This document shows positions 238 through 27,200 of a DNA stretch of 64,000 nt, piece by piece. The stretch spans positions 122,388,001-122,452,000 of the forward strand of contig NC_059427.1 in NCBI RefSeq assembly GCF_021028975.2, given 5' to 3'. Made by a program: the position numbers and the translations under genes. Numbering within the stretch: the stretch's first letter is position 1; every line of letters begins with the position of its first letter. The stretch is from Sphaerodactylus townsendi (Eukaryota). A model generated the notes under the pieces. It was not told the DNA's origin, did no database searches, and saw only the letters and a list, made by a program, of their open reading frames with translations.

Positions 238-3200
238 CTGGGGAAGAGGAAAGAAAACAATGCGGAACTGAAATGGTGTAGTATAGAATGCCAGTATTGC
301 AGAAGAGAGGTTTTTAACATGAAAATGACTGAAATCTGGTGGCTGAGAGACAAAACATTTTTCTAGTCACTAATTTGGATCTATTATCCCGTTTACATAC
401 AAACAGGTGTAATATTAGGCTGTGTGAAAAGATGAACAACTGTACAACTATAAAAACAAATGATAATTGGCAATAATAGTGGTCAGATCCATTTCAATCA
501 GGTGGGCAGCAGTTGTAAATAGCAGATGATATCTCTGGTTTGTAAGGCTAGTATAGTTCAAAGCAAAGAGTTTAATCAGCATTTGTCCCCGTCCACTGTT
601 TAATTATACAGCCAAGGGTGTACCGACCTAGGGACATGGGGACACCCATGTCCCTGAGCACATGCCTTTTGGTCACGTTGGGGGGTGCTGGACACCCCCC
701 ATGTGACGAAATGGCCAGCGCCCACCCCGTAGTGCCCTGCCCCCCTCCTGGCCTCTTGGCAGGCTGGCTTCTGCCCTCCCCAGGCCCTTGGGAGAGCAGC
801 AGCTGGCCTCCAGGGACATGCAGGGGAGGCAGTGCTCCACCCCCCTCCCTGCAGCCTGGCATCTGCCCTCCCCAGAGCCTGGAGAGAGCAGGAGCTGGTT
901 TCCAGGGACTAGAGATGTGGCGCCGTCCCCAAGCCCCTACCCCCACGGACTCCTTGCAGCCAGGCTTCTCCCTTCTTAGAGCCTGGGGAGAGCAGGAGCC
1001 AAGCCAGCTTCCAGGAAACTACTTTTAAAAGCACAGAGGCCGGGGGTTGAACTCAGGGGCCCCGAGCCCCATCCATGGCCTCCGTGCTTTAAAAAGCATG
1101 TCCCTGTAGGCTGGCTCGGTTCCTGCTTTCCCCAGGCTCTGGGGAGGGCAGAAGTTGCGCTGCAGGGAGCCCGGAGGCGGGACTCAGGGCCACACCCATG
1201 AACCCTGCCCCCAGGCACAGGCGGGGCATCTGGAGAAAGACTGTCTCTAGGCACCATTTCCACCACCACCCCATACACCTTTGTATATAGCCCTGCCTTT
1301 GTGCAAGTCACTAATATTTAGCAAAATCTAGAAAAAACACTATCATTCTCTTGCAGAGGGGACAGATAATGGTTTTTAAGCTTGTTGAAGGTGATCAATA
1401 TAAGGCAGCCATTATTGCCAGTCGTATACACCATCATTTCTTTTGCTATCACAAAACAAATTTTCCAAAATGTTCAAAGCACAATATTCTGCAAAAGGAT
1501 GACAATGGGCAACAATGGCTCTTTTATACCACTTTCAACTTTCAGAAAAAATAGTCTTTAATCCTTAGTTTTAGCCATATTAATACATTTAAAATCTAAA
1601 TGTATTCTGACATCTAGTGGCCACGGAAAGTCCTAACATGGGTGATACAATTTTTTAACCGGTGGCATAGGGGGAAAAACCCATTCTGCTTTTGCATGGC
1701 TGGGTCCTTCATCTTGCAGCAACAACATATACCAGGTGCAACCAGCTGGATTGTCCTGATTATGACAACTCTCTCTGACAGCATCTCCCTCAAGGCTACT
1801 TTCCAGAGTCTCCTTCTACATTCTGGAGAATACTTTTGCCATCTCTCATTTCCTACAGTTGTTATTAGCATTGTAAAGGATAAAACAAAGGGGTGTCCAT
1901 TAACAGCCCAATTTTCCTTTCAAACACCGAGGCACACACATTAAAAAAGTCGCATTTCAACTAGAGAAACTGAGTGGGGGGGTTGATGGGTTAGACCTTT
2001 TACATCCCTGATCTTTGTCACGTATGTTTTGACCCAAAGACAATCACATTTATATAACGTAACCTTCAATGTCTTACAGTTCACTTACTTCATCAAATGC
2101 TCAATGAATTGAACGCTAGTACATAAAAGACTGCTTTTGGGTAAATTATGATACCAAAAGAGAAAATGCTTCAGCTTTTGCCATCAAAAACAATGCCATT
2201 GGCCTCGTCAGCCAGGTCACAGTGGGAAACGGATTCATTAGTCCTGGTTTTTTTTTTTAAATGATCAGTTGACAGGCAAACAGATCTATTCTAAACAGTG
2301 ACACTCTTCTGATTCCACTGAAGTCAAAGAGACATTGCCATTAGAGTTGGTTTTTATACTCAACTTGTATTGAGTCTCAAAGTGTATTGTCGAAGGCTTT
2401 CACAGCCGGATTCAACTGGTTCTGGTGGGTTTTCTGGCCTGTGCTAACACAGGATTTGCATTCACCAATACTACAGCTGCTGCAGGGCATGAAAATGTGA
2501 ATCACTCCCTGGACTGATAAGCCCCTCCCGCAATATAATACTATCAACCACATTTCTGCATAACAAGTTCCACTCAAACACTTACTGATTGGTTCCCCAC
2601 CCTGGGACATGGACAATATATACCCCAAACATTTCCTTCTCTCTGGATACAGTGATACACCTCTGTGATACACCTCTAAAGATGCCAGTCACAGATGCAG
2701 GCGAAACATTAGGAACAAGATCCACCAGACCACGGCCACACAGCCCAGAAAACCCACCAGAACCAATTTCAAAATGATTTACAATCACCTTCCCTTCCCC
2801 TCCCTACAACAGACACCTTGTGAGGTAGGTGAGGCTGAGAGAGTTCAGAGAGAATTGTGACTGGCTTAAAATCACCTAGGAGGCTTCATGTGGAGGCTTC
2901 ATATTGCTGTGATGTGTGAAAGTAAGGCAATGTCCCACAGAGCATCCAGATGTCACTTCACAATAATTTCAGACTTGTGGGGGACCATGGTAATGAGCAT
3001 ACCACAATTACATATACCATCAGAATCACCACCACCACACCCGTACTGAGTACTGTACAAGGTGAAGCATTACACCTTGTACAGCAGTGAGCAGCAGTGG
3101 CGTAGTGGTTAAGAGCAGGTGCATTCTAAACTGGAGGAACCGGGTTTGATTCCCCGCTCTGCCGCCTGAGCTGTGGAGGCTTATCTGGGGAATTCAGATT

Positions 3201-6200
3201 AGCCTGTACACTCCCACACACGCCAGCTGGGTGACCTTGGGCTAGTCACAGCTTTCCGGGGCTCTCTCAGCCCCACCTACCTCTCAGGGTGTTTGTTGTG
3301 AGGGGGGAAGGGCAAGAAGATTGTAAGCCCCTTTGAGTCTCCTACAGGAGAGAAAGGGGGGATATAAATCCAAAATCTTCTTCTTCTACATCCCTGAGTC
3401 ATACTATAAGCTCAATGAGGTCTCCAGCAGGGGTCCTCTTTCAAACCAGGTACTCTGAAGCTTAAAAGCTAATAGTGGTGTTTTCCACACGGACCTTATA
3501 TCCTGGGATGGGGAGGTGAAATATTCTGGTCTGCGCATGACTTCCACATGGCTTCTGGCTCTAAATCAGGCCCACCCTGTGAGATTTCTCTTCTCCCAGG
3601 GTTTTCAAAAATCGCTAAATTGGCAGTTCTTTTGAAAAACCCCACTCCCATGCAAACACTGCAGGAGACAGACCGGTTTATTTTTCCCGCCTCACCGCCT
3701 GCTCTCCCCACCCCAGAACGTCGGAAAAATTGGAATGTTCATGCATGCGTGGAAACGTTTGTTTGGAAAATGAAAATAAACGGGGGCTTGTGCATAATTA
3801 GCTGGAGTTCTTTCTTCTCTTAACCTGATAAAGGGCAGCCACGTGAAGGAAGAAACCGAGATACAAACAACCCGGGATGTATGATCCCGGGTCTATACCA
3901 GGATATTAGGTCCAACCAGAAAATGCAAGTGTCAGTGAGCTTCAAATATACAGTCAGTGGTTTCTCACTGAGCTACAGTGGCTTAGAAATTCCATTAGGT
4001 CCAAAAATCATAAAGTCCTGTTGTTTCCCATGTGGCTGGTTAGCGAAGGTAGAAAACGGGATAATTCTCCCCGTTGGGCTGTTTTTAAAACATGTTTTAG
4101 AAATATGGTAAAGTTCCTTGTTTAAGGAAAGTATCCTTCTTTTGATTTTCTAGAAACAAAATTAAGTATTTGAAAGTATTAAGTATTTGACAGGCAGTCA
4201 ATTAGGTGAAAAGTAGTTATTTCTGTTGGCAGTAGACGATAGGACTTGCTATAATGAGTTTAAATTATGGACAGAAAGATACCAGCTGGAAATTAGGAAC
4301 TTTTTTTTTTACAGTAAGAGTTTTTTACAGTAACAGAGAAATTATTAATGCCCCGCCCCTGGAATGCCTGGCCACGCCCCCCTTGTGCCCCGCCCAGCCC
4401 CATTGGCGCTACGCCATTGTTTGAATCCCACCACCAAGGGAACCTGTTACTAAATTTTTTGGATCCCACCACTGGATAAAAGGGTCAACTTACCCGCATC
4501 ATCCGCCTAAGTACACGGACCTTTTTGGCCTCTTCCTTAGCTTGCAACAGCCCATAACCACAGGGCACTCGTACCTTCCCAACTCTCTCAGGCATCTGCT
4601 TCACCAGAGGCTTCTCCACCAGCACCTCCCCTTCACACTCCACTGGCTTGCTAAGGAGGGCAGCATGCAGAGCCCCAATCACTACCTGAGAGAACAGGTA
4701 AATCTTAGAGTCAGAGGATGATAAAATGAGCCATGCACTACTCTTGGCTTGCAGAACAAGCATCACAAGCTACAGTAAATAGAACACAACTAAACATGAA
4801 AAGGATCTCACCGCTGCTTCTTGTGGCTTCTTTTTATTTCTAACAATTCTTAGCCAAAATTAGGAGGACAACCTGAGAGGCATGTACACCACACTCTAAT
4901 GGTGTTTGGTTGTTTATACTTTCGATTTATTGGCCGCCCTCTCCCGAAGGGCTCAGGGCGGCTTACAACACAATAAAACTCAACAATATCAATATTATTT
5001 TAAAACAACCACAATATGCGATCTAAAAAAACCAGAATAAAATCCAAAACAGTTTAGATGCCGATAAAAATCCCAGTTTAGATGCCGATAAAAATGGTTA
5101 ATTCCATACACAGTCCTTGCATGACTCCCCACTTTCAGAATCTTATTGGTCTCTCCCTCTCTCCTTCAAGTGTTCTTTAACTAGGTGAATTAGAAAGGAG
5201 TCTGTATCAGTAGCTACAAATTTGTACTATAAAGGCCAGACATAAGGCTTGATTGCAAGACACCTATCTTCTATTACAGGGCTGGTTCCAGGTGGCAGAG
5301 TTGGCCCTAGGCAACAGGATATAAGTGGGCCCCGTGTTCTCCTTTGCTACAGCCTCTAGGGGCTTTTCCCCACTCACCGTTTGTTGTGCGCTACTCTCGC
5401 CAAGTAACACGGGGTCCAGCAGCACTCCCCACTACAAGGGCGGCAACAACGCACCCGCCCCGACTCTGCCACTCTCGCGCCCCCTCAGTGCGCATCATTT
5501 CTGGCGCTGTTCGAACAGTGCCTTTTGGATGACCCTGCGCAGAGCGCGGGGCAGTGGGGAAGCCTGGGTGGTTACCCTGGGTTTCCATTTTCCCGTCGCT
5601 TATAACGTGGACCCTCCAGTCCAATCAGGGCATGGGGGGGGGGGGCGTGCGCAATGCGCGTGCAGCTCGTTTTAAATTTATGTGTCCACAAATAGACGTG
5701 GGTTCGTCAGAACGTGTGGGAATTGCAACCCACAGGCAAAGCTTTGTAGAGGAAGCGCTTGGCTTAAAAAAGAATCGCCCNNNNNNNNNNNNNNNNNNNN
5801 NNNNNNNNNNNNNNNNNNNNNNNNNNNNNNNNNNNNNNNNNNNNNNNNNNNNNNNNNNNNNNNNNNNNNNNNNNNNNNNNNNNNNNNNNNNNNNNNNNNN
5901 NNNNNNNNNNNNNNNNNNNNNNNNNNNNNNNNNNNNNNNNNNNNNNNNNNNNNNNNNNNNNNNNNNNNNNNNNNNNNNNNNNNNNNNNNNNNNNNNNNNN
6001 NNNNNNNNTTGCTGGCTTGCAAGAGGCTGCGAGTGGCTTCCTGGGGTCTGGCGGCCCAGGTCAGTCAGCTGGCTGGCGGCGTTCTAGAATTTTGAAACTT
6101 TTCCAGGCTGCCTGGCTGCTTGTGATTGGCCGAGGCAGATGGAACCTCCATGCAAATGAAGCCACGCCACCTCACCGCCTGGAGATCAATAGAGATCTGA

Positions 6201-9200
6201 GAAAGGAGCATGCATTCCGGCTTGGCAAGCTCCAGGAAAACCTGCCCTGGCCAAAAATCGCCCCCCAAATGGGTCCCCCAAGCCAGGTGAGAAAGCCCAC
6301 CCCCCGGCAGCCCCCGTGCCCCCATACGAGCATCCCCAGCATGTCTCTAAAGCGAGCGTTCTTTCCCTCTTATTTCTTATGAGCCCAGGATGAGCAGCAA
6401 TTTGTCCAGTTCAAAATTGAAAAAAAAATTCCCGGTGCAACACAACGCAGCAGCCAATCAGAACACCCCCTGAGCGAATTGTGGGGAGTCCTGCCTGGCT
6501 GCTGTGCAGCTGCCATGCTCATTGGAGGAAGGGGCAGAAGCAGCGGTGGGGAACATGACCCCGCGCTAAAAAGGTCCTGGAACAAATGAAACCGGTGAGT
6601 ATCGACATTATTTTAAAAGTGGGGAAACAACCTAGGTTGGGACATTCTTGAAGATTCCTGGGGAAGGTGGGATTTGGGGAGAGACCTGAAGGAGTCATAA
6701 TGCCATAGACTCCACCCTCCAGAACAGCCATTTTCTCCATGGGAACTGATCTTTGGAGATCAGCTGTAATTCTGTGAGATTTCCAGACCCTAACTGGACA
6801 CTAGCAACCCATTCTCTGCTAACTACTCTCTTTTCTATTTCCATTTCTATTTTCTGGGGAAAAAATAATTCATTCAAAATCCTTTCTTGATTGATGATTT
6901 TCTGGGTTGCTGTTGCACAATCTGTGGATTCTGTTGTATTTTTGAAAACGCATGGGATCTGGGATTAATGGGAGAACATTGTAAATAGTACCAAGGAATT
7001 CATTATAACGTCACCTTCAATGGCTCCAGAAAGGTGACAGAAGTTATAAAAGCACAGGAAGAGGAGATCAGCCACATCAAGGTAGTATGTTCAAGGAAGA
7101 AAGAACCATAACAAATGTTAATGGAAAAACAGCCAGCTACCAGCAAGAAGATTAACATGTAGATTGCTGGCAGCATCGCAGGAGGGAACAGCCGTTCCTG
7201 AGGTCTTCGGGGTACCCCTGGGGAAAAAAAGCCACCAAGGATGAGGATTGTGCACAGGCCAAATTCCTATTGTTTTACTCTCAAGAATAATGCACAGAAT
7301 GGGGTGCTGCGTGGTTTCTGGGCTGTATGGCCGTGTTCTAGCAGCATTCTCTCCTGACATTTCGCCTGCAACTGCATCCTCTGAAGAGGCCAGCCACAGA
7401 TGCAGGCGAAACATCAGGAGAGAATGCTGCTAGAACACAGCCATACAGCCCGGAAACCACGCAGCACCCCAGTGATTCTGGCTGTGAAAGCCTTCAACAA
7501 TACCATGCACAGAATCATTATTATCTCCACTACTAGTAACATAAAATATCAATCCAGCAGAAGGGGACAAAATTATCCTTACCTCAACTATTTCTACCCC
7601 ATAATGTCCTTCACATAAATATAAATAGATTCTTGCCCTATTTCAGAAAATAAGCCAGTTTTTCACCACTATCAATGCGTTCCATAAATGCAGTAATATT
7701 TAACATTTAACTCTATCCTAGTTTTCTGGGATATATAATTAAAAAAATCACATAAAATATTTAATTTAAAAAAATCACAAAACAAGAAACAAAATAATCA
7801 AAATATACTGAATTACAAATACAGAAATGGAAAACAATAATCAGCTTTTTATGTGTACTTCTCCTCTTCCAATGACATAAACAAAATAGTGTTGCGTGCA
7901 GTCTAAAAAGAAGAGTGGGCCAGGAATTGTTCTTTAGAGCAATATAAATTTTAGGTGCCATTATAGAAAAGGTGGACCAATGCAGTATGCTCTAGGAACA
8001 TTACAACCCCACCCTCCAATTTCCAAATTGAGGTTGTTACAGCTGCTTTTTTTGAGCAGAAGAATGTTATGGATAAAGAATTTATCTTTTCTTTTCCTGT
8101 TCCTTCCTGATCAACAATGCCACCTCTGAGCTGCTGACACACTTGCTGGTGAAAAATATGGATATCATAAATTTTCCCAGTCTATATATATAAACGTGAA
8201 ATACCACTGACTGACTGACTGACTGACTGACTGACTGATTCATCAAAAGAACTCAAAAACCACTGAAACTACAAAGTTGAAATTTGGCACACCGGTTCGT
8301 TATGTGCTTCAGGTGCTCGCTAAGAAAGGATTTTCCAAAATATTCACTTCCACTCGACTTATTAGATATTTACTGTTCAACTCTGGCCATCTGCATGAAC
8401 ATTCTAAGGGTGACAGTTAAAACCCACAAGTTTCATGTCCTTCAACATGGTATTTTCGATGGTTTTTGAGTTCTTTTGATGAGTCAGTCAGTCAGTCAGT
8501 CAGTCAGTCAGTCAGTCAGTCAGTCAGTCAGTCAGTCAGTCAGTCAGTCAGTCAGTCAGTCAGTCAGTCAGTAGTATTTCGTGTTTATATATATATAGCT
8601 TCGTTTTACAAGACATTTTAATGAAGGGCACTTTGAAGCTCTAACTCCATTTGTTGCATTGACAAGTTCTGCTAATGCCCACCAAACAACAAGCACGATT
8701 GATCCAATGGTGCGCCAACTGCACTCTAACACCACCCTCCTCAACGCATACAAACCTGTTCCTTCTGCTGAAACGGCTAAAGGGAGAAGAGGAATTAAAC
8801 ACAGAAAGCGATTTACACATTGCGTTAGAAAAAGATAACTACAGGAAGCTGCTGCAAAAAAAATGTGAAAATCAACCAGTCAGTCCACAGACAGGCTGTG
8901 AGGAAATATGCTGCATGTCACCCCAAAGTTCACAAACAGGCTGTAAAGAAGTATGCTGAATGTCACCCGAAGTTAACAGACAGGCTGTGAAAAAGTATTC
9001 CTCGACCAACCCTCACGTTAACCAGACCACTACAGACAAATACAATCAAAACAGATTACAAACCACATTATCACCTTGGACTAAGAAACATGAAGGCTCT
9101 GTACAAACACGTGATTGAAGCCACAATTTGCACAGGCGTTTGCCAAGGAGAAACCGTATTTATTCCCCGTATTCCTCTAATCTCATCAGACTACCACTTT

Positions 9201-12200
9201 GAATTTAAAAGGCTGCAATTTCCGGTAAAACTGTGTTACGCCGTTACTATCAATAAGGCACAAGGGCAGAGTTTGAAAGTGGCTGGTGTAGATCTAAGGC
9301 GTGACTGCTTCTCCCATGGTCAGTTGTATGTGGCGTGCTCCAGAGTTAGTTCACCTGACAGTTTCATCCTCCAACCAGAGAGAAAAACCAAGAATGTTGT
9401 CTACAGGGAAGTTTTGAACACTTAATCTGAGGGAGAAATGAAACTTCCATGCTGAACAAGTTATTAGTAAATAGTTCATAGTGTTTATGTATTCATTAAA
9501 TTTCAAACTTTAAGAGTATTTTTATCCGGTAAGTTTTATATTTACTATTTAGTATTCACTATATATTTAGTATTTAGTGAATTTATCAGGCTGAATGGCT
9601 CAAAACTTCATTCCACTTTCAAGTTACCATTACTCAAGTTCAACAAAACATGTATTAGTATTTGGATTTCTGCATTCCATTTTTTTAAACTCTCTGTAGC
9701 GAAGCACGGGTATCCTGCTAGTAGCCTGAATAGCTCAGGCTAACCTGAGCTCATGAGAGCTTGGAAACTAAGAAAGGTTGGCCATGATTACTTGGATGAG
9801 AGACCCCCAAGGAAGACAAGAGGAAGGCAATGGCCAACCACCCCTGCTCATCTCTTGTCCTGAAACCCCCTTGAGGGGATGTTGATTGCAACTTGATGGT
9901 TTCAGAGGAAAGTGGTAAAGATCTCTTTCTCTCTCCCATCATTCTGCTTCTCGCAAAAGTAACCTCAACATTTACACTGGATGGAGGGGATGTCTTTTGA
10001 CATTATTAGAAAACTAAACATAACGTACTGTTCTGCCTGTGTACTGTAGAAGTCATAATCAAATTAAATCACAGGATTACAATGTGATTATGCACAAAAT
10101 CTGAACTCCTATATCTGTGGTGGCGAACCTTTGGCACTCCAATTGGCCATGCTGGCAGGGGCTGATGGGAATTGTAGTCCATAACATCTGGAGTGCCAAA
10201 GGTTCGCCACCACTGTATCTTTCCCCAGCATTTTAGAAATGCTCTGAAAGTGTCTTGTTTTACTTTCTCTGCATATCTAAGTAGTATAGGTGTATAGCTT
10301 TGCTTTCCCCTTTTCACAACTTTGACAGCTACTTCCGGTCCCGCCCCCTTTCCTCCTTTGGAATGGGAAAACAACATCTTCCATCCTGCCAGAGCTGAAA
10401 ACAGCTCACATTCCCAAACCTGTGAGCATTTGAGGCTAATTAAAGGGGAGTGAATTAAAAGGTGTGAATTAAAGGGGTGAATAACATGCTTTTGAAACGT
10501 GTGTTTGATTTTATTTGGGCTGTGCGTGGAAATTGGTTTGTGTTTTGTGTGTTTTAACAAGAGGCTGTAGTCTGGGGCAGTGATCAGAGAGCAAAATGTT
10601 AGTTTCCCCAGATGCTGGTACAGTGAATGCAGTGTTTGAGAAGGGGACTTCACCAGTTTTTACACACTTTGTGGAGAACACCGAGTGCATAAGCAAACCC
10701 ATTCCTTATCCCACAGCACCCTGTGTTTTACACTTTCCCTGTTTTACTAGCGTTCTCTGGGGAGAACACAGAAAAGCAAACCCCACCCACCCCCTTTCTC
10801 TCTCTTTCTATGGAAAGCCTTTCACCTGTTGTCCCTCCCATCCCAGGTGTTTTAAATTCAGACAGTCCTATGATTTTTCAGCTTATGGTTTTACAGCATG
10901 TTCTGCATACTCTTTCATTCCCCAAACTGTGAGCTTGTTTCTAATGCATGCCCTTTTCAAATTTGGCAGGAAACGGATGCATTTCCAAAATACACAGACG
11001 GATACAATGATCCCAGCATCAGAGATCCACACAGCATCCTCCTTGGGAATGGGGAAAACAATTAGTCAGCATATCCTGCCAGAAGCTAAAAATAGCTCAC
11101 ATCCCCAAAACTGGGAGCATTTGCTCCTTGAAAAGTTTCCTGCCAGAAGCTAAATTAACTCACACACTTTATAAAATGATATCAAATGGGCATTGAACCA
11201 TCGGGATAGGGAATATAAGTTCTGAGGTGTTTCCTGCAAGATGCTAAAAAATAGTTCACCTCACTCCCAAGCCTTTTCACTTCCTTCAGCCAGGTGCAAA
11301 GCAGATTCTCTTTCCAAACGTAATGAAGCTGACAGCCCCAGAGCCTCAAATTCCCCTTTGAAAAAACCATGTGTGTGCCCATGTGGGGGTGAATGTTGAA
11401 AACGTAGGACAAATGTGGTGCTTCTGCTATGAGCCTGCAGCTGAAGGTGTGGTAACAGAGGCTTTAGCAGATATGCTTTTGCAAAACAGAACGTTTGTGC
11501 CCTTTTGCACAGTGTATATGTTTCAAGCTGACATTCACAGTAGAAACGCACACGCACCAATCCTGCAGAGTAGACCTGTCCCAATAAACCATGCAAACCT
11601 GGCCATTCCCTTACCAAGTCGATATCATGAGCACAGACATCTCTGTCTCTGATGTATGCATTTTCCCATATGTTAAGAATTTTTTAAAAAAGAAAGCCCA
11701 CCATTGTTCTGAATAAATATTGACTTTACAATAAATATTGACTATACAAAGTGCAGGGCCATTATCAGCGCGTAGGTTTAAGCAGTAAGCAGAAAATGTG
11801 CAGGCATCCAGAAACTGTGGAGAACCAGTGTGTTGTAGCAGTTAAGAAATCACACACATTTGCACGTAGGAATCGGTTTTTATTTAATTATAATTTCATA
11901 GCTGATATTTGTGTGAATTTTACAGTTTTATATACCCCCTTCTAGGTTCTCATGCAGAGCAGGCTATGGCATTAGCCCACAAAATCCAAAAGCAGATTGA
12001 ACGCACCCAAGTTACAGCATTCTAAAGTTACAGTTACACGCGTTGTGAAGGAATATACCCACACGATCTGTTTCCCCACCCTTCCTTGTAAGCACCCAGG
12101 ATGGTGATGGGGTGATAGTAGCAGCGCTACTGAATTCCCTAGGGAGTTTGTTGTGCATTTTACCACGAAAGCATGTTAGGTGACCAAAGCCGGTCATTAT

Positions 12201-15200
12201 TCTTCAAGGGCACCTCACCGGCGCCTGTTGCGGGGAGATTGAAAGCAGTTTTGAGGGTCTTTAAAGCTGGGGTCTGAATGAAAACCGTTCGGTCTGAAAT
12301 CCTGGACAGAACCCCAGCACTAGGAAAGCACACAGCCTCTAGTTGTCAGGGGGAAAAGACACGCACACAGAGAACAACTGTGGAATCGGGCATTCAGCCA
12401 TGCGACGACAAGCCCTGCAGGGCAGGCACAGGGTCAGAAATAGAGTTTGAGCACTGTAAAGCAGACCCAGCGTGTCAATTTTGATTCCGGGTGGCGCATC
12501 ATATGTCAAACAGAGCACTTTGGAGATCACTTCGAGGCTGGACTACATAGTATTATAACCTGCCACCCACCCACCCCAAAAAAACACACCTTCCTCAGGC
12601 ATCACCCCAGACTCTCCATGAATTTCCCAGTCAAGATTCTATGCAAATCCCCAAACTCTTTGCAGAAGAAGAAATGTGCTCTAAAAGGAAAATTTTGTTA
12701 TTTTTCGGTCCCTATGTTTTTTGTTTCAACGGTGTGTTCACTAAACCTTGCAATACCAATTTTAGATTTAGATTTTAGTTTTAAGCGTCAGCTATTTTAG
12801 TTTCTGTTTATTCAGGAATGCTGTAAAAACTTTTAGGAATGACAGAGCTATTTGTCCCGGTTCCTGACCATTCAGCGAATAAGAAAACTTGAATGCTTTT
12901 TATAGAAATGTAGGCTGATGACAGGCATCGTCTTTGTTCAGCTGTTAAGGTTTTTAACGCACACAGATCTATGTGTATCAAGAGGAAGGCCTGAGTGGCC
13001 GGCAGATAAGCAGATGGTATTTTGGAGTGGGTGCAGACTGTCTGAATTCACTTTGTAATGAGACTTCTGTGTAGTAAAATGGTTAAACTCTTCACAGCAG
13101 GATAGTGCCCAGATGGGTAATATTCTAAGATAGAAATTCTAAGATACACTGGGTGTCCTTTTTAAAATTTGGGAGGGGGGGGGTGTTTACAGGGTATGAC
13201 AATAGTTAACAGGTTCTGGAAAGATTAAGGGGAAGTGGTGATAAGGCCTTGTCCTAACCAGACCAGGGGTTTTCTAAACAGATGATGCTGAAGGGGCATT
13301 AAAACCCTCCCTGATAGAAATGCGCTTTCCTTGCTTTAATAATCTTAGTCCAGAGCACATGGACGGCTTTATAACATGAACGAAATTGTACTTTAGCAGA
13401 CTAGGAACAAAATGGGAGTGTTTAAGATATCCCAATTTAAGACAAAAATACTATTTTGATTATAAAGCGGCTAGCTCAAAAAACAAGAGTGAAAAGGGTA
13501 GGGAGATGGAACTGAGGGACTTACATGGAGATAACTATTTTGGCTAGGAGTAAACTTTCTCTAGAGCAGGCAACCTATAATGAGTTTCTATTTAATTTAA
13601 AAAAGAGTAATTAATATCACTGCGACCTAAGCAACATTTCATTTTCAGCAGCAAAAACTCTTTTCTAACTTGCACAGAAGGGCCAAACAACGCAGACAGC
13701 ATTTTTAAAACGTTTTTTGTAACTCTTTGGAGAAGTTTGGAAAACACAAAATCATAAAAACTGAAATACTTTTTTTTTCAACCAGGTGGAGGCAAACCCT
13801 TATAGGGCAAGAAGTAAAATAAACCAGGAGATGTTGTAACATGTAAAGCTGGCAAAATCTCTGAGATTCTGACCTCAATTACACACCCACCCTTTGGCTA
13901 CCAGGTTTCTCAAAAAGACCATTACATACGATCCCAATTATCACAATGTACAAGAAATAAAAAACATACAATACAGCGCTGAAAACAGTTCCGTTGACTT
14001 TTATTTATTTATGAAAGGGCGACACCTAAGGTTCCTGTTAGCCTTACTCTTACTACCACCATCAGGTATACTGATAGCTCCGTGTTGGGGATTTTTACTG
14101 TTCCCTTCAAAACCGGCTGCACTTTTAGCCTGTTTGGTGAGGCTTGGAAAGGTAAAGGCATTCTGGACCCAAGTGCATAGTCAGGTTACAACAATTGATG
14201 ATCATCAGTTTCCTTTTTTACCTATTATTTATTTACCGAGTCTAGCCTTATCCAACAATGAGATCCCAAGTCATTACGAACATTTATTTTTTATCATGGC
14301 GGTGACGCTTGCTCTGGGTAACCCGCACGCATGTGTGGAAACAGATAAAAGAAGTGCCACCCTTGCCCGCGGAAGGTGGAGAGACAAGGTGCTTTCCCTT
14401 ATATGTGAACTGTATAAGTAAACCTAGACGGATACCTTTTAGAATCATATAAAAATAAATGGGAAGCCACGGACCGAACAAAAAAAAAACATAGGGATCG
14501 AAAAATAACAAAATTTTCCTTTTAAGAGCACATTTCTTCTTCTGCAAAGAGTTTGGGATTTGCATAGAATCTTGACACAAGGAAATTCCATGGAGAGTCT
14601 GGGGTGATGCCTGAGGGAAAGGTGTGTTTTTTTGGGGTGGAGTGGGTGGCAGGTTGAGTTATAATACTCATAGTAGATCCGACCTCGAGAAGTGATCTCC
14701 AAAGTGCTCTGTTTGGACATATGATCGCCTTTTCACCCGAGATCAAAATTGACACGCTGGGTCTCTGCTTTACACAGTGCTCAAACTCTATTTCTACGAC
14801 CCTAACGCCTGCCCTTAAAGTGCCAGGGCTTGTCAGTCGCGATGGCTGAAATGCCCGATTCCACAGTTGTTCTCTGTGATGCTGTCTTTTCCCCCCTGAC
14901 AACCTAGAGGGGCTGCAGTGTGTGCTTTCCTAGTGCTGGGGTTTTGTTCAGGATTTCAGACCGAACGGTTTTCATTCAGACCCCAGCTTTAAAGACCCTC
15001 AAAACTGCTTTCAATCTCCCCGCAACAGGCGCCGGTGAGGTGCCCTTGAAGAATAATGACCGGCTTTGGTCACCTAACATGCTTTCGTGGTAAAATGCAC
15101 AACAAACTCCCTAGGGAATTCAGTAGCGCTGCTACTATCACCCCATCACCATCCTGGGTGCTTACAAGGAAGGGTGGGGAAACAGATCGTGTGGGTATAT

Positions 15201-18200
15201 TCCTTCACAACGCGTGTAACTGTAACTTTAGAATGCTGTGGCCAACTCTGGAGTGCGTTCAATCTGCTTTTGGATTTTGTGGGCTAATGCCATAGCCTGC
15301 TCTGCATAGCAAGGAACCTAGAGGGGGGTATATAAAACTGTAAAAAAATTCACACAAATATCAGCTATGAAATTATAATTAAAAAAACAAACCGATTCCT
15401 ACGTGCAAATGTGCAAATGTGATTTCTAAACCACAAACCACACTGGCTCTCCGCAGTTTCTGGAGTGCCTGCACATTTTCTATTCTTACTGCTTCAAACC
15501 CTCACAGCGCTTGATAATGGCCCTGCACTTTGTATAGTCAATATTTTATTGTAAAGTCAATATTTATCTCCAGAACAATGGTGGGCTTTCTTTTTTAAAA
15601 ATTCTTAACATATGGGAAAATGCATACACTCAGAGACAGAGATGTCTGTGCTCATGATATGTATCCAACAGTATTAAAGGAATGGCAGCCAGGTTTGCAT
15701 GGTTTTATTGGGACAGGTCTACTCTGCAGGATTGGTGCGATGTCGCGTTTCTACTGTGAATGTCAGCTTGAAAACACATGGCCACTTTTCTTTAAAGTGC
15801 AAGCGGGCACAAACGTTCTGTTTTTGCCAAAAGCATATCTGCTAAAGCCTCTGTTACCTCAACTTCAGCTGCAGGCTCATAGCAGAAGCACACATTTGTC
15901 CTACGTTTTTCAACACATTCCACCCCACCACATGGGCACACATGGTTTTTTCAAAGGGGAATTTGGAGGCTCTGGGGAGCTGTCAGTCAGCTTCCTCTAC
16001 GATTTTGGAAAGAGAGATTCTGCTTTGCACTCTGGCTGAAAGGAAGTGAGAAAAGGCTTGGGAGGGAGGGTGGAATCTATTTTTAGCATCTTGCAGGAAA
16101 CACCTCAGAACTTATATTCCCCTATCCCGATGGTTCACATGCCCATTTGATATCATCATTTTATAAAGTGTGTGAGTTAATTTAGCTTCCTGGCAGGAAA
16201 CTTTTCAAAGGAGCAAATGCTCCCCAGTTTACTTAGGGATGTGAGCTATTTTTTAGCTTCTGGCAGGATATGCTGACTAATTGTTTCCCCATCTCCCAAG
16301 GAGGATGCTGTGCTTGGATCTCTGATGCTGGGATCATTGTATCCGTCCTGTGTATTTTGGAAATGCATCCGTTTGACTAGCAAATTTTGAAAAAGGGCAT
16401 GCATTAGCAAAAAAGGCTCACACAGTTTGTGGGAATGAAAGTGTATGCAGGGAACATGCTGTAAAACCATAAGCTGCAAAATCATAGGACTGTCTGAATT
16501 TAAAACACTGGGATGGTAGGGACAGCAGGTGAAAGGCTTTCCAGAGGGGAATGAGAGAGAGAAAGAGGGGTAGGGTTTTGCTTTTCTGTGTTCTCCATGA
16601 GAACACCCGTTTAAAAACGAGGAGAAGTGTAAAAACACAGGGTGCTGTGGGATAAGGAATGGAGTTTGCTTATCTCTGTAAACGGTGTTCTCCACAAAGT
16701 GGGTAATGTAAAACTGGTGAAGTCCCCTTCTCAAACACTGCATTCACTGTACCAGCATCTGGGGAAACTAACATTTTGCTCTCTGATCACTGCCCCAGAC
16801 TACAGCCTCTTGTTAAAACACACAAAACACAAACCAATTTCCACGCACAGCCCAAATAAAATCAAACACACATTTCAAAAGCATGTTATTCACCCCTTTA
16901 ATTCACACCTTTTAATTCACTCCCCTTTAATTAGCCTCAAATGCTCACAGGTTTGGGAATGTGAGCTGTTTTCAGCTCTGGCAGGATGGAAGATGTTGTT
17001 TTCCCATTCCAAAGGAGGAAAGGGGGCGGGACCGGAAGTAGCTGTCAAAGTTGTGAAAAGGGGAAAGCAAAGCTATACACCTATACTACTTAGATATACA
17101 GGCTTCTATTTTCTCACTGGCAATTGTGACTTACAGGGATGCACACATTCCTCATCAGTCCAGCATAATTACAACAGTCCAGCATAATTACAACTCCCTG
17201 ATCTTGAACTCAAAAATCACTAACACAGAACATAATCCTCATTCCGACATGCAAAGAGAAATTGGGTGTTGTGGGGTTTTCCTGGCAACTGGTCCCTCCA
17301 ACTACCTTGACCATATGTACAAGAGAGATCTTTTACTGTGCTAAGAAAAAATTATCTGTGTCAGGAGATACTCTGGTTAGTGTCCAAGATTCATTAGTGT
17401 CCTCTCCAAGATTCATACGCACCAATCCGGGTGGTAACTGATGAAACTGGGGAAGGAGAAGGTTCCATATCAGAAAGAACAGCACTGCCAATGCTTGTCA
17501 TAGTAGAAACATAAGATATGGACTTGCGTAAAAAGCCCCAACTGTTCCCATGCTGTGTGATCCCATCAGACCAGCCACTACAGGGACTTTCCATCCTGCC
17601 GTCCAGAAAGAAGGAAGAAAATGTGATGAAGTTAAAGTTAACCAATATAACAAAAATATTAAGGTATAAAGAAGAAGAGAAGAGTTTGGATTTATATCCC
17701 ACCTTTCTCTCCTGTAAGGAGACTCAAGGTGGCTTACAAGCTCCTTTCCCTTCCTCTCCCCACAGCAGACACCTTGTCAGGTAGGTGGGGCTGAGAGAGT
17801 TCCGAAAAACTGTGGCAAGCCCAAGGTCACCCAGCAGGAATGTAGGAGTGCAGAAACAAATTTGGTTAACCAGATAAGTGTCTGCCACTCAGGTGGAGGA
17901 ATGGGGAATCAAACCCAGTTCCCCAGATTAGAATCCACGTGCTCTTAACTACTACATCGCACTGGCTCCTAGCATAGCAGCCACTTAAGAAATTGGAGAC
18001 CTGCAGTGTCATTCACAGCAGAGTCATGCCATTTTCATACCCAAGAAATCCCTATCTGAAGAAAAAAGGACAACCACTTGGATTTGCATGAGGCCAAAAT
18101 TGCAAGGGTTGGTTCAGAGCCCCTGAGGAGAGGCAGAACATTCAGGATTATTGCCCTAGGTGACATGAACATTTTCTAAACAAACAAACAAGTCAAAACA

Positions 18201-21200: not shown

Positions 21201-24200
21201 CAGGGGACTGGGCTCCCTTATTTTTAATATGTGTAGAAGACAGAACTTAGATAAAAATGGCTTTTCTTCATGCTCCAGCTCTGTGACAGAAGTTGTTGCA
21301 CCTGCTGAACCTGTTTCTACACCACAACTCTTCAAAATTTAGGTGGCTGAATTAGCCTCAACAAAGAATAGCATTCTATAGAAAAAATACATACTTTCAA
21401 AAATAGAAGATGCCTTTGGATGTGATCAGATGTGGAATAACAAAGCTGGAGATGGCAACAGAAAACTGGTACAGTGCAGTCATTAAAAGATAAGCCAGGA
21501 ATTGCCTCATTAAAAATTCACCTTATCAGGAATTCACTGGGTAAGCCATTATCATCTGAACTCAAGCCCTTTATTTGCAATTCAGAGTTAAAACTAGTGC
21601 TCTACCATATAGGATTATTGCAAGATCAGCTGTTGACTGCAGCCTTGATGTAGTGAATTGTTTCGGCATTATCAAGGATATTTATACTTTCTTTTCACCG
21701 TCCACAAAGAAATGGGCAGTTTTAAAATCATTTTTGCAACCTCAGTCAAAAGTGCGTAAATATTTGTCAGACACTAAAGCCACAGAAGTGGGTTTGGAAA
21801 GTCACAGTGCTCAAAAGAATTAAAAATGAATTGTAAAGGCCGCATGTCTCAAGAGAGGTTGTCTGCACTGAGCATTCAGTGCATTGGAAGGGATAAATTT
21901 AGACAAACACATTTTGATGAACTTTTGGGTAATTTTGATATGAGGAAGGCTAGAAAAAAACTTTTTTTTGGTCTTAGTGTCTCCAATTATTGCAGTTTAT
22001 TTCTGAATATATATTTCAAAAACCAACTGTTTAATTACTGTTGTTATCAGTAGTCATGATCATCCTATTAACACTTCCCAGGCAATAAAATTTGTAAGCT
22101 CAATGGTTTTTTAACAGTAAACCTACAATTTTATTTTCCTTAAAAATTCTGTTTATTCCACAAATGTTTACAAAGTTCAGTTGTGGCAAAAGTTTCTCAG
22201 TGTTAATTTTAACATTCATGCATTTTCCCGCAGTCACTGTAATGTTTAATAATAACATATCCATCCTTTAGAGCAGTGTTTCCCAACCTTTTTGACGTCA
22301 CGGTACCCTTGACTTCACTCTTCATATCTCACGGTACCCTTGATGAAAACACCCATTTTAAAAAAATTGATTTACTTCAATGATTAGTTACCTGAGAGAC
22401 ATAATAGTTTTATGCTGTTAAGTGTCTGTTTATTCATTCATTAATGATGTGAAAATGAACATAATTTAAACTAATTACATTAAGACAATAGTGCGCTCCC
22501 TCTGCCATCGCCACCAAGCCGTAAAGCGAGCTGCCGTGACAACCAGCAAAAGGGGCATTGCAAAGGGACAGGGCGGTAGCGTTGTCGCGGTACCCCTGGA
22601 AAGTGTTCACGGTACCCTGGTTGGGAATCGCTGCTTTAGAGGAAGAATTGTGAATTGTGGAATTTTAAATACCCACCATCATCCTCAGCTTCACTTAGCT
22701 TTAAAACACTCTTCCATCTTCCTCTGCTTGTGACAGTGGGGGCCTGGGAGGGGGGCCTCACAAATAAAGGCCTAGGGCCTCTATTCACCTAAATCCAGCC
22801 CCAGCATGAGGAGGGAAAGGAACAGATGAAAGCTAAAAGTATGCCCTCTCCCATGCTGAGGAAATTCTTTTGTTATCCTCAGCAAGCTCACAGAACAGTT
22901 TTACTCACGCTGCTGACAGAACACATATCCACAATGGACTCCATTCTCCCAGGGACAGATAAGAAAGAGATGCTGCCCATGTTAGAATAGTTCAGAGACA
23001 CTTCCATCTCTACAGTTTGAGTGTCCTCAGCAGGTGGGTCAGGGTCTTCTATTATGACCTGGAGGAAACAAGGGACATGTTCACATTATCTTCCCTTCCC
23101 ATTCAAGTGCTCAAAAGGGTTCTTTTAACTCAGCTAGTCTCAGATGCAAACATCAGTATCTCAATGAGCATTTTATTCCTTCAGAAGAGTTGACCAGCTC
23201 CCTAGGCATTTTACAGTTACAGGACAGATCAAGGAATTAAGTTACAAAGTAATTTAAGAAGTAAATCCACATCAGTACAAATGTTATGCCGAACCTGTTC
23301 CCAGTGATCTAATATAGTTTGGCTGTTTTGGAATTCTGCTACATCTATAGGTTTGCTTGTTGGATTGATTATTGCATTTGTTCTGTTATTACACTAAGTG
23401 GTTTTGTCAATTTCTGGGGTGTCTCATGCTTGATTGCTACTTTGAATGATAAGAGGACATTTCTCCCTTGAATTTGTGGTTGACAGCAGATTGCATTGGA
23501 TGAGAACTGTACCTTACTGTAGGTTTTCCTGAAGAAGAAGATGAATAGTAGTTGTATTGGGTAAACAACTACAGCCACAGTTACTCCAACAGCAATACTC
23601 TCTGCTGTTACAGACGTCTGCCTCCCCAAGGGATTGCTGTAAGAAAAAAAAATAATAGATCAGCCATTTAGTAACTAACTGAAAACCAAGAATTGGGATC
23701 AAACAATTCTTGAGGCTAGGAATTTGTGATTCTTGATGTGATATTTGTCCTGAAAAGCATAACCATATGGAGGCCAGGTATGGATTGAGCCTGTGGCACT
23801 TAGAAGAAGGGGGTAAACTCTCCCCACCACTACCTGTGCCATTCCCCAACAAAAACTGGCCCCCAAACTGCTTTTAGATCTAATAATGGGAGTGGTGGGA
23901 TTTGGATTTGGACCAGATTCAAATCAATGCGCTCAGATTGGCCAAATTCCAAACCTTGCAGATTCGAACTGCCCCGAACCTGTGGGAAAATCTGAGAATT
24001 TCGGATGCGTTTTTATTTTGGGGGTGTTTTTTCACATTTCAGCCTGCAGGGGGCGTATTTTTAGACGTATTGGCACCGAAATTTCAGGGTATCATCAGGA
24101 GACGGTACTGATGACACCCCCCAAGTTTGGTGCAGTTTGGTTCAGGAGGGGGCAAAGTTATGGACCCCCAAAAGGCGTGCCCCTATCCCCCATTCTTTCC

Positions 24201-27200
24201 AATGGGAGCTAACGAGATGGGGGCTACACTTTTGAGGTTTTTCCAGACACCTGGGAGTTTGGGCAGGACTCCTGGAAGGTTGGGCGGGACACCTTGGAGG
24301 TTGGGAGGGACGCCTGGGAAGTTGGGCGGGGCGCCTGGGGCTTTAGGTGGGACGCCTGGGAGTTTGGGCGGGTTGCCTGGGAGGTTGGCCGGGATGCCTG
24401 GGAGGTTGGGTGGGACACCTGGGCCACTGGGCGGGACACCTGGGAGGTTGGGCAGGACGCCTGGTGGGTTGGGTGGGACGCCTGGGCCATTGGGCGGGAT
24501 GCCTGGGAGGTTGGGTGGGACACCTGGGCCACTGGGCGGGACGCCTGGGCCATTGGGCAGGATGCCTGGGCCGTTGGGCAGGATGCCTGGGAGGTTGGGT
24601 GGGACACCTGGGCCATTGGGCGGGACACCTGGGAGGTTGGGTGGGATGCCTGGTGAGTTGGGTGGGACGCCTGGGCCATTGGGCGGGCCACCTGTGAGGT
24701 TGGGCGGGACTCCTGGGCCATTGGGCAGGACGCCTGGAATAAATAGGCGGGTTGCCTGGGCCGTTGGGTGAAACGCCTGGGAGGTTGGGTGGGCCACCTG
24801 GGAGGTTGGGCGGGTTGCCTGGGCCATTGGGCGGGACGGCTGGGCCGTTGGGCGGCACGCCTGGTGGCTTGGCGGGCCTCCTGGGCCGTTGGGTGGGCCG
24901 CCTGGGCCATTGTCATGTGATTGGCCTGTGATCCCCAAAGCTCCCCTGTGACAAAGATACAATGACCCACCTGTGACCCTCAACACCTATTGCACCATAC
25001 CAGATGGTACAGGCAGCCAAGAAGAGATTAACCATGAGCATGCAGCAAGTGAGCCTCTGCACTCGAGTGAAACGACTGTTAGGAGGACAGCTCCAGACAG
25101 AAAACCAAACATGCCAGTCAGAAAAGCCAAGACGCAATTGTGCAGGGAAAATCCGGGAAAAGTACTTCAGCTCCTGGGGACCTGAGAACAGTAATGACAA
25201 TTATCGCTCTTAGCACTGATTCTCTCCTTCTCCTAACATCAACTTCTGAGTGAAAATGCTAGCCTTTCTTTCCTAATTAGCAATCATAATTTCCTTCAAA
25301 CCACCTCACTGTACTTGAAATTACATAATTTTTGACTGCTCATTCATTTGGGGCAGAGGCGTAGCTGGGCCAAACTGTACACAGAGCACAGTGTGTTTTT
25401 TCTGTTCCCCATGGCCCCCCACCCCCTTCCCACATTTACCTTAGTTCCTTTTCTTTTTCTAGTACTTTTTCAGGCTGAAAAAAGCGGCCTCTTCACAGAT
25501 CAGGCTAAAAACTGCTTGAGGAACTATACTTCCCAGGAGACCTTGTAAGCCTCAAAGTCTCTTGGGAACTGTAGTTCCTTAGAGCGTTTTTGAGCCTGAA
25601 CTATAACAGTTTTCCGGGCTGTGTAGCCCTCATCTATGGCTGGCATCTGCAGAAGCATGTCTGGTGAGATGTGTTTCTCTCTATGGCCGCTTCTGCAGAA
25701 CCCAAAAACAGTGCCCTAGAGATGGCAAAAACTCCATCCCTGGGGGCGCTGTTCACACAGCTGCCGTGCTCCGCTCCCCCCCCACAAAATGGTAGGAAAC
25801 CGCTGCTTTCAAAACTCGCTCCATGAGTGAGTTTTTTGGAAAGCAGCGTCTTCCCGCCAGCACCTTGCGAAGGGCACCAGCGTGAGGGTGCAGCTTTCAG
25901 ACGCTGCCTGTTTGCATGTTTTGTTTACCTTGTCTTCCTCTGAGGCTCCAGAGGGAGAAGGGACACACCCACACTGTCCTCCGACCCACGTGGGTCAGAG
26001 GGCAGCATGGGCATATCACTTCCTCCCTCTGGAGCCTCAGAGGGAAGACAACGTAAACAAAACATGCAGACCAGGCCTCTGCAGTTCGCAATAGCTTCAG
26101 GGCCGCCTGTACAAGACCATATGAACAGTCCCGTGGCTCCACCAACACCATAATTTCAGCTGCTTCTGCCGCTGTGCAGAAACGGCTTATGGCACAGTGT
26201 GGAGTGATTCTGAAGATGTCAGTCATAGATGTGGACGAAACGTTAGGAACAAAGACTACCAGATCATGGCCATACAGCTTGGAAAACTCACTACAGTCAA
26301 CTGATTCTATGAAAACCTTCAACAAATCCTCAGAATATTTATGGAAATATTTGCACCTTATTTTCACTTCCTAGGGGCCTAAAAGATACTTACTCTTTAA
26401 TAAATCAGTCCAAAAACAAGCAATACATGAAAAAATCACTTCAAAAATGTGAAATTAAGCAATATTTTACAGAAATATTGTGTATTTTTGTGAAAATTAA
26501 TCTCTTTTAAATTCTGTTTTGACAAACAGTAGTGAATAAAAGTGCATCAAATGATGAGGGAGAAGGAGAGGGTTGTTTTAATTGGAATCTTCATTTTTAT
26601 CAAAAACATTTCTTCCAGTTTTCAGCGCATAGGAGAGGACTATAAAAATACTCAAATATTTAGCCATGTCTACAGAAAACAATATCTGTCTGTCTGAACC
26701 TCTCCTCATGCAAGGGTGGTGGTGGTAAACTTCCACCAATTTCCTTTTCTGTACTTTCTCATACCTTGTCTGAGGGGACATGTATTTGGGATGTTTGTAG
26801 ACTGTTGTGATATATTTAAAGACATACCTGCAGTAACTTCTGCTAGGTTCATACCAATCTCACTGTCATGTTTTCCCCTAAAGATTCCTTGGGATTGTAG
26901 TTTGATTCAGAAAACGGAAGATCCCTCACTCACTGCAATTCCAAAGGCCAGGTGAGCAACAAAACCCACTCTAAAGAATAAAGCTGGAGAGACAGAGCAC
27001 TGGGATTGCGCTTAGGCATGACCTTAAAGTAAACTGTTGGGAACTGTGCTTCAGAGTCGCGGTTCTACTAGGCTAATGCTCACATGCTGCCAGCACCTCC
27101 TTTTCCACCAGTCCTTCATTCTTTTCATTTTCCACAGACAGCCAATCCTCCACTAGGAAGAAATACATATTGTTTGTCTGCTTGTCCCATATAATGACAT

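What the first reader, a model, noticed from the sequence alone, without database searches (positions are those of the whole stretch)
10273..17097. 6.8-kb fold-back element with ~2.5-kb TIRs and Maverick/Polinton-type AGTAGT termini inside a polycystin intron
Seen: 10273-12725 and 14477-17097 are reverse complements around a unique 1.75-kb spacer, with AGTAGT at 10280 and ACTACT ending 17090. The outer ~380 bp look nearly identical and CpGs are retained, suggesting a young element. Known: Mavericks/Polintons are virus-like, protein-primed DNA transposons with AG...CT ends, short terminal tandem repeats such as AGTAGT, and TIRs usually of hundreds of bp; they occur in non-avian reptiles. Inference: a non-autonomous Maverick-derived satellite element that is mostly TIR (about 74%), with unusually long arms and no polB, integrase or capsid, so it would be mobilised in trans.
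Basis: partly seen in the sequence, partly recalled or inferred. Interest (0 to 1): 0.8.

Follow-up and report, generated by a model that had tools for sequence, protein, structure and literature searches.

The report
Gene-less fold-back element in lizard intron
A 6.8-kb gene-less mobile element made mostly of two long mirror-image arms sits in an intron of a lizard polycystin-like gene; it may be a stripped-down relative of virus-like Maverick transposons, but one of their hallmarks is missing and one arm appears poorly sequenced.

Summary
The fold-back is in the sequence: arms 10277-12726 and 14480-17093 (74% of the element) surround a 1.75-kb spacer, in an intron of a squamate polycystin-1-like gene. 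Two corrections. (1) The 90% arm identity and the '380-bp young zone' look like sequencing noise. The right arm has 184 extra bases against 20 missing, and internal repeats side with the left arm at 13 of 15 indels. The arms are probably near-identical. (2) The Maverick 6-bp target-site duplication is not met. The flanks of AGTAGT/ACTACT are TATCTA and TAGATA, which are reverse complements. The only perfect abutting direct repeats at symmetric ends are ATAT, TA and AT. No Maverick, transposase or other gene was found. Best reading (about 0.5): a non-autonomous Maverick derivative whose inverted repeats were lengthened by copy-back, as reported for truncated virophage EMALEs and Galileo. Main rival (about 0.27): a cut-and-paste element with an ATAT duplication. 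Other copies and raw reads could not be examined, so membership is unproven.

The parts
10277..12726 (+). Left arm (about 2.45 kb); the cleaner of the two arm sequences
   Evidence: internal repeats favour its state at 13 of 15 arm indels
14480..17093 (-). Right arm (2.61 kb as assembled), reverse complement of the left arm with 184 extra bases, 20 missing bases and 49 substitutions; looks like unpolished long-read sequence (inference)
12727..14479 (.). Spacer, about 1.75 kb, unique in the window; no known gene or RNA; inner arm boundary fuzzy by about 10 bp at a T/A run
10280..10285 (+). AGTAGT, Maverick-type (AGT)2 motif, 3 or 7 bp inside the outer limit of the symmetry
   Evidence: motif described in PMC8097293 section 7
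17085..17090 (+). ACTACT, mirror of the left motif
10273..10276 (+). ATAT, left copy of the longest perfect direct repeat abutting symmetric ends (candidate 4-bp TSD; palindromic, so it may instead be part of the inverted repeat)
17094..17097 (+). ATAT, right copy
10273..10659 (+). Outer block, 386 of 387 identical to 16711-17097
12014..12304 (+). Internal block, 291 of 291 identical to 14949-15239
10331..10346 (+). ACTTCCGG and CCGCCC boxes 50-70 bp from the end (labels ETS-type and Sp1-type are recalled; function untested)
   Evidence: positions
10351..11262 (+). Degenerate subterminal direct repeats: 10351-10432 resembles 11037-11123 (E=2e-12), shorter copies at 11137-11164 and 11231-11262; also three 13-14-bp units at 10438-10482
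13873..14421 (+). 182-codon open frame in the spacer (ATG at 14011), then AATAAA at 14454 and an A10 run at 14480-14489; longer than nearly all shuffles, but no homologue and not host-like in codon use
17421..17618 (-). Host polycystin-1-like exon upstream of the intron (tblastn limits); 327 bp from the element's right end
7012..7218 (-). Next host exon, downstream of the intron (tblastn limits)

Best explanation
A real, probably recent, non-autonomous mobile element of about 6.6 kb: two near-identical 2.45-kb arms and a 1.75-kb spacer, most likely a defective derivative of a squamate Maverick/Polinton. Shown: fold-back anatomy, intronic position, AGTAGT/ACTACT near the ends, no detectable gene. 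Inferred: (1) it retains about 4.2 kb of one end of a Maverick (ordinary TIR plus adjacent non-core DNA); (2) the other end was rebuilt by copy-back (template switch or panhandle repair), turning subterminal DNA into extra inverted repeat; (3) it needs pPolB and integrase from an intact Maverick in trans; (4) the flanks became mirror images because pairing of the long arms converted a 6-bp TSD into the reverse complement of its partner (two central bases differ). The apparent 10% arm divergence is mostly sequencing error in the right arm.
For: AGTAGT occurs 15 times per strand in 64 kb, so finding it within 10 nt of the boundary is about a 0.2% event. It is the commonest vertebrate Maverick end and is the end motif of TIR-bearing rows for Anolis (2 of 3 rows), Paroedura (1 of 3) and Pogona (2 of 8, one with a variant 3' motif). 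One Anolis element called intact there has only a 4-of-6 TSD. [quoted passage not shown] Butterfly polintons have about 2-kb TIRs that include formerly internal genes (10.1101/2025.02.07.637071). Vertebrate Mavericks mostly have accessory regions outside the core modules, so an end fragment may lack core genes. Exons on both sides are collinear and the two flanks differ, which argues against a simple fold-back read chimera.
Against: 6-bp TSD not met: TATCTA vs TAGATA. The 7-bp mirror symmetry beyond AGTAGT is not chance (0 of 4958 random pairs reached 6), so this reading needs an extra, unobserved conversion step. The arms exceed the longest TIR among 134 intact vertebrate Mavericks (1,447 bp). 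No trace of any Maverick protein: Pfam 0 hits in 12 of 12 frames; PDB no hit better than E=0.31 in 6 frames; PHROGs best E=0.021 among 15 ORFs; protein-collection searches empty. No second copy was seen, and none could be sought outside the window.
Confidence: 0.5

Rival explanations
1. A non-autonomous cut-and-paste (DDE) fold-back transposon with ends CTAAGTAGT...ACTACTTAG (10277-17093) and a 4-bp ATAT TSD, of Sola1-like (AWWT target) or atypical piggyBac-like type. The subterminal repeats would be transposase-binding sites and AGTAGT a coincidence. The TA and AT 2-bp readings are variants of this.
For: A perfect ATAT direct repeat abuts symmetric ends and accounts for the whole 7-bp symmetry with no extra event. 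AWWT is called a hallmark of Sola1 (PMC3845634). piggyBac TIRs start with a conserved C and ATAT sites are rarely seen (PMC5381638). Repeated subterminal motifs are present. Non-autonomous Galileo copies lengthen TIRs by recruiting internal DNA (PMC3573991).
Against: ATAT is a palindrome, so it cannot be told apart from inverted-repeat extension; a symmetric exact 4-mer turned up in 309 of 5000 random draws. It leaves AGTAGT as a roughly 0.2% coincidence. piggyBac TIRs average 14 bp, and its non-TTAA sites were mostly put down to mutation. Neither family is among the six superfamilies found in Anolis (PMC3014272). No transposase relic.
Confidence: 0.27
2. Partly an assembly artefact: a longer element, perhaps a full Maverick with about 390-bp TIRs, whose interior was mis-extended or mis-filled, so that the same end appears on both sides and the long arms are false.
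For: The region is poorly finished: about 10% extra bases in the right arm over 1,776 nt. The clean outer block (387 bp) is close to the mean vertebrate Maverick TIR (402 bp). The window has a 228-N gap. TIRs and multi-copy status caused assembly problems and false indels in EMALEs.
Against: A contig extended along the wrong end would continue into the reverse complement of the spacer's end, but the left arm runs into different sequence. A perfect 291-bp block also lies deep in the arms. The noisy right arm looks like a long read joining spacer side to flank (inference). Host exons are in order and 27 exon HSPs (9,606 nt) have no stop.
Confidence: 0.13
3. A single-locus inverted duplication (template switch, or a fold-back inversion of an older insertion), not a mobile family.
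For: No other copy or fragment in 64 kb. Mirror-image flanks are what a local duplication would give.
Against: The symmetry stops within 7-11 bp of a recognised terminal motif and the host flanks are otherwise unrelated. The whole unit is foreign to the window and has internal subterminal repeats.
Confidence: 0.1

Closest known systems
Vertebrate Mavericks/Polintons (PMC8097293; read: passages, section 7, supplement parts 1 and 29 of 43 and row searches)
   Same: (AGT)2//(ACT)2 motif near the ends; long TIRs; present in lizards and snakes.
   Different: Intact ones are 12.7-24.6 kb with 7-8 core ORFs, TIRs of 46-1,447 bp and 6-bp TSDs. This is 6.8 kb, has no detectable gene, 2.45-kb arms and no 6-bp TSD. 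That survey started from integrase plus pPolB hits, so it would not have found gene-less copies.
Truncated EMALEs, endogenous mavirus-like virophages of Cafeteria (PMC8547959; read: passages)
   Same: Short (5-15 kb) derivatives of Maverick-like viruses with TIRs said to be regenerated; TIRs up to 2.3 kb; TSDs mostly 3-5 bp.
   Different: Protist host; EMALEs are recognisable by their genes; three truncated cases; no sequence relationship was tested.
Butterfly polintons with about 2-kb TIRs (10.1101/2025.02.07.637071; read: passages)
   Same: TIRs expanded to about 2 kb by taking in internal sequence.
   Different: Those TIRs carry hexon and protease genes in full-length elements; here no gene is detected.
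Galileo 2-TIR (Foldback-like) elements of Drosophila (PMC3573991; read: passages)
   Same: Non-autonomous copies that are almost all TIR, with internal direct repeats; TIRs lengthened by recruiting internal DNA.
   Different: P-element superfamily, 7-bp TSD, TIRs up to about 1.26 kb; no such TSD here.
Sola1 and piggyBac non-autonomous elements (PMC3845634, PMC5381638; read: passages)
   Same: 4-bp AT-rich TSD fits ATAT; first base C fits piggyBac.
   Different: The examples read have short TIRs (14-36 bp) and different terminal sequence; no transposase here.

Membership tests
Maverick/Polinton | Terminal motif (AGT)2//(ACT)2 or (AG)3//(CT)3 at the very ends | tested here: inconclusive
   Motif present at 10280 and 17090, but the symmetry runs 7 bp further out, so the true end is not fixed from one copy
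Maverick/Polinton | 6-bp target-site duplication | tested here: not met
   TATCTA vs TAGATA, 4 of 6; no exact 6-mer at any of 16x16 end positions scanned
Maverick/Polinton | Long terminal inverted repeats | tested here: met
   2.45 kb; longer than the 46-1,447 bp of intact vertebrate elements
Maverick/Polinton | pPolB, integrase, ATPase, protease, capsid genes or their relics | tested here: not met
   expected for a non-autonomous copy; sequencing indels could hide a relic in the spacer
Maverick/Polinton | Ends shared with an autonomous Maverick in the same genome | not testable with these tools
   No eukaryotic genome or Dfam/Repbase collection available; an indirect test through the open frame crossing the right end found nothing
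Sola1-like DDE transposon | 4-bp AWWT TSD | tested here: met
   ATAT at 10273-10276 and 17094-17097; hallmark per PMC3845634; weak because palindromic and seen in 309 of 5000 random draws
Sola1-like DDE transposon | Sola transposase, or termini shared with an autonomous Sola1 | tested here: inconclusive
   No Pfam hit; termini unlike the two insect examples read; no library to compare
piggyBac | TTAA TSD and short TIRs starting with C | tested here: not met
   TSD would be ATAT, TIR 2.45 kb; only the first C fits
hAT / Mutator / P-type foldback | 8- or 9-bp TSD | tested here: not met
   No 8- or 9-mer with at most one mismatch in the 16x16 end positions scanned
Any mobile family | Dispersed copies with the same ends; empty site in relatives | not testable with these tools
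   Only the 64-kb window was available; none within it

The most novel reading that the evidence does not exclude
Lizards carry a spreading family of gene-less, copy-back ('snap-back') Maverick satellites: 6.6-kb elements with 2.45-kb TIRs that fold into an almost wholly double-stranded racket, parasitise intact Mavericks for replication and integration, and homogenise their arms strongly enough to overwrite their own target-site duplication. That would be the vertebrate Maverick counterpart of a defective-interfering viral genome, invisible to surveys that start from integrase or polymerase.
Probability: 0.3. Interest if true: 0.65.

Novelty: new variant of a known kind. Interest (0 to 1): 0.4.

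Why it matters
The large vertebrate Maverick survey started from protein hits, so gene-less derivatives were not counted there. A multi-copy, mostly-TIR satellite would show which cis sequences suffice for Maverick replication and integration, and copy-back arms would be a footprint of strand-displacement replication (inference). If the ATAT reading is right, it is an unclassified long-TIR DNA transposon in squamates. It is also a practical caution: one arm of a long inverted repeat can stay unpolished and mimic age or a TIR boundary. I found no paper describing such an element in lizards in four searches (also 62), but the library lacks most subscription papers and Repbase Reports. From recall, Repbase does list non-autonomous Polintons in other animals; I could not check this.

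Tried and rejected
Coding content. Pfam on 12 frames covering both arms and the spacer with stops read as X: 0 hits. Pfam on 10 element ORFs: 0. PHROGs on 15 ORFs: best E=0.021, unknown function. PDB on 6 frames of left arm plus spacer: one hit at E=0.31. phmmer against 1.84 billion representatives with one of the six spacer frames only: 0. Word-based protein searches with the frame crossing the right end and with 11251-11760: 0. ESM Atlas with 2 ORFs: no usable hit. A host codon model scored 9 of 9 element frames tested negative, while 2 of 2 flanking exons (part of the training set) scored positive. Against this, long ORFs are more frequent than in shuffles (4 of at least 120 codons, P up to 0.007), which stays unexplained. 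RNA: 6 Rfam matches, all below gathering score; no tRNA. Contamination: no match in plasmids or phages. Nanopore 'missed base' deletions in the left arm (PMC7229812; read part 1 of 4) were considered and disfavoured, since internal repeats side with the left arm. A Markov likelihood comparison of the arms gave only a small difference and was not used. Natural decay of the arms was rejected on indel bias. A search for 'piggyBacA', a recalled label for ATAT-targeting piggyBacs, gave only unrelated papers, so that lead is unverified. Carp rows with a CTAAGT motif have non-matching TSDs and were judged uninformative. Passages of PMC4455052, PMC6431247, PMC10748475, 10.1101/2024.01.15.575659 and 10.1101/2023.10.06.561300 added only background. 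Viral and metagenome contig collections stayed unchecked; the bacterial genome collection was not scanned as irrelevant. bioRxiv supplements were not seen; the butterfly polinton preprint's could hold gene-less forms.
Full report
Observation. Self-comparison of the window shows one large inverted repeat, 10269-12726 against 17101-14480, at 89.8% identity with 190 gap bases. The arms make up 74% of the 6.8-kb unit. The right arm and spacer match nothing else in the window. AGTAGT starts at 10280 and ACTACT ends at 17090.

Host context. The 1271-codon frame at 44774-48586 carries PKD and REJ domains. Its best named relatives are reptile polycystin-1-like proteins (Rhineura 70%, Elgaria 70%, Zootoca 68%; mammalian polycystin-1 about 31%), so the host is a squamate and the gene a polycystin-1 paralogue. 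Aligning three homologues to the window gives a collinear minus-strand exon series. The element lies between exon 17618-17421 (aa 3639-3703) and exon 7218-7012 (aa 3703-3771), with no exon missing. Twenty-seven of the exon alignments (9,606 nt; 4 of 31 left out) contain no stop, so unique DNA here is accurately sequenced. The intron claim is confirmed.

The arm divergence is probably not biological. The outer 387 bp differ by one transition, and a 291-bp block deep inside is perfect. The rest has 104 gaps in the left arm against 14 in the right and 48 substitutions, 2.5 indels per substitution; seven other repeat pairs in the window give 0-0.22. In bases, the right arm has 184 extra, 20 missing and 49 substituted, almost all within 1,776 nt. 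To ask which arm is wrong I used degenerate repeats inside the arms as referees. Self-search found three such alignments in the left arm and none in the right. At 15 indels inside them, 13 favour the left state and 2 the right (P=0.007 if independent, which they are not fully; some segments were found by searching the left arm only). In all 15 the state without the extra base wins. This fits insertion-rich raw long-read sequence left unpolished in one arm; that PacBio CLR reads are insertion-rich is recalled, not from a call. Nanopore reads are reported to miss bases in inverted duplications (PMC7229812), which would predict deletions and fits less well. So the 390-bp step is not evidence of a TIR boundary, and the arms are probably near-identical. 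That suggests youth or arm-to-arm conversion, though polishing can itself homogenise arms. CpG retention is modest and confined to the middle.

The ends. Outside AGTAGT/ACTACT lie TATCTA and TAGATA: reverse complements, 4 of 6 identical as direct repeats. The symmetry extends 7 bp past the motif, then 3 of the next 4. No random pair among 4958 reached 6 bp, so this needs an explanation. At symmetric ends the perfect abutting direct repeats are ATAT (ends 10277/17093), TA and AT. No exact 5- or 6-mer, and no 8- or 9-mer with one mismatch, was found in 16x16 end positions; one asymmetric 6-mer with a mismatch and two asymmetric 4-mers are at chance level. Two readings remain. Either the ends are AGTAGT/ACTACT and a 6-bp TSD was converted to its mirror image by arm pairing, or the ends are CTAAGTAGT/ACTACTTAG with an ATAT TSD. 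The first explains a motif that would sit within 10 nt of the boundary about 0.2% of the time (15 per strand in 64 kb) but needs an extra event. The second needs no extra event but leaves the motif to chance, and ATAT is palindromic, with symmetric 4-mers arising in 309 of 5000 draws. One copy cannot decide.

Content. No protein, RNA, plasmid or phage similarity was found; only one of six spacer frames went to the deepest search. The arms hold degenerate subterminal repeats and, 50-70 bp from the end, ACTTCCGG and CCGCCC boxes, which from recall resemble ETS and Sp1 sites of adenovirus ends. The spacer has a 182-codon frame (13873-14421), longer than the best frame in at least 298 of 300 shuffles under each of three models, followed by AATAAA at 14454 and an A10 run at the arm boundary. 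It has no homologue and scores as non-coding under a host codon model. It may be an accessory-gene relic, a captured transcript end, or chance.

Mechanism. I favour (0.5) a defective Maverick derivative. One end region of about 4.2 kb was kept and the other end was rebuilt by copy-back, so subterminal DNA became TIR. It would be replicated and integrated by an intact Maverick in trans. Only the anatomy is shown; origin, copy-back, trans-mobilisation and TSD conversion are inferred. Support from print: (AGT)2//(ACT)2 is the commonest vertebrate end motif, and most elements have accessory regions outside the core genes (PMC8097293); lizard and snake Mavericks, including a gecko's, have this motif, and one intact Anolis copy has a 4-of-6 TSD; truncated EMALEs are flanked by regenerated TIRs, with TIRs up to 2.3 kb and TSDs mostly 3-5 bp (PMC8547959); butterfly polintons have about 2-kb TIRs. 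Against: the TSD test fails, the arms exceed 1,447 bp, and no Maverick sequence similarity was shown. Rivals: a DDE fold-back element with ATAT TSD, Sola1-like or piggyBac-like (0.27); partial mis-assembly of a longer element with about 390-bp TIRs (0.13); a single-locus inverted duplication (0.10).

Membership and novelty. It is built like a non-autonomous long-TIR element (Galileo 2-TIR, truncated EMALE). It cannot be filed as a Maverick: the 6-bp TSD was tested and not met, and shared ends with an autonomous copy could not be tested. In Anolis, Polintons were reported as seven copies with a 584-bp TIR in the one complete element (PMC3014272). Searches showed no paper on a gene-less, mostly-TIR Maverick in lizards, within a library that lacks Repbase Reports and most subscription journals. 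All papers were seen as passages or named sections as stated, none in full. Verdict: real-looking, new variant of a known kind, family assignment open; interest 0.4, and 0.65 if a multi-copy copy-back Maverick satellite is confirmed.

Noticed in passing
window 8180-9720: Helitron-like relic in the same intron: starts TC followed by a TA run, ends in a GC-rich hairpin-like stretch and CTAG (end features recalled as Helitron-type), with a helicase C-terminal fragment at 8991-9425 (weak Pfam helicase hits, E=0.0014 and 0.019). Its 5' end is partly duplicated in inverted orientation with (ACTG)n tracts (8183-8281 vs 8441-8595).
   Followed up: partly
window 10111-10219: Small MITE-like hairpin with 25-bp inverted arms (10117-10141 / 10189-10213), about 55 bp left of the element; gives sub-threshold miRNA-like Rfam hits.
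   Followed up: partly
window 237-59792, minus strand: Intact multi-exon polycystin-1-like gene (about 70% to lizard polycystin-1-like proteins, about 31% to mammalian polycystin-1), with a 3.7-kb PKD-repeat exon at 44834-48511. One tblastn hit at 36219-36665 spans a short intron.
   Followed up: yes
window 24010-24912: GC-rich 21-bp minisatellite (31.5 copies) next to a repeat that recurs at 29988-30349, where it forms a short inverted pair.
   Followed up: no
window 34830-35796 and 38289-38516: CR1/LINE-like reverse-transcriptase fragments at 34830-35437 (label from reading the translation; not searched); 35572-35796 and 38289-38516 are a 228-bp inverted pair at 92%.
   Followed up: no
window 3983-4475 and 42512-43000: A 494-bp interspersed repeat pair at 95% identity, of unknown family.
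   Followed up: no
window 5781-6008: 228-N scaffold gap, showing a scaffolded or gap-filled assembly.
   Followed up: partly
window 13873-14489: Unexplained: 182-codon frame, AATAAA 33 nt after its stop, and an A10 run exactly at the spacer/right-arm junction; resembles the 3' end of a transcript but has no homologue.
   Followed up: partly
window 17662-17955, 3086-3395, 55317-55618, 48828-48957, 56537-56648: Several copies of one SINE-like family at 77-93% identity.
   Followed up: no
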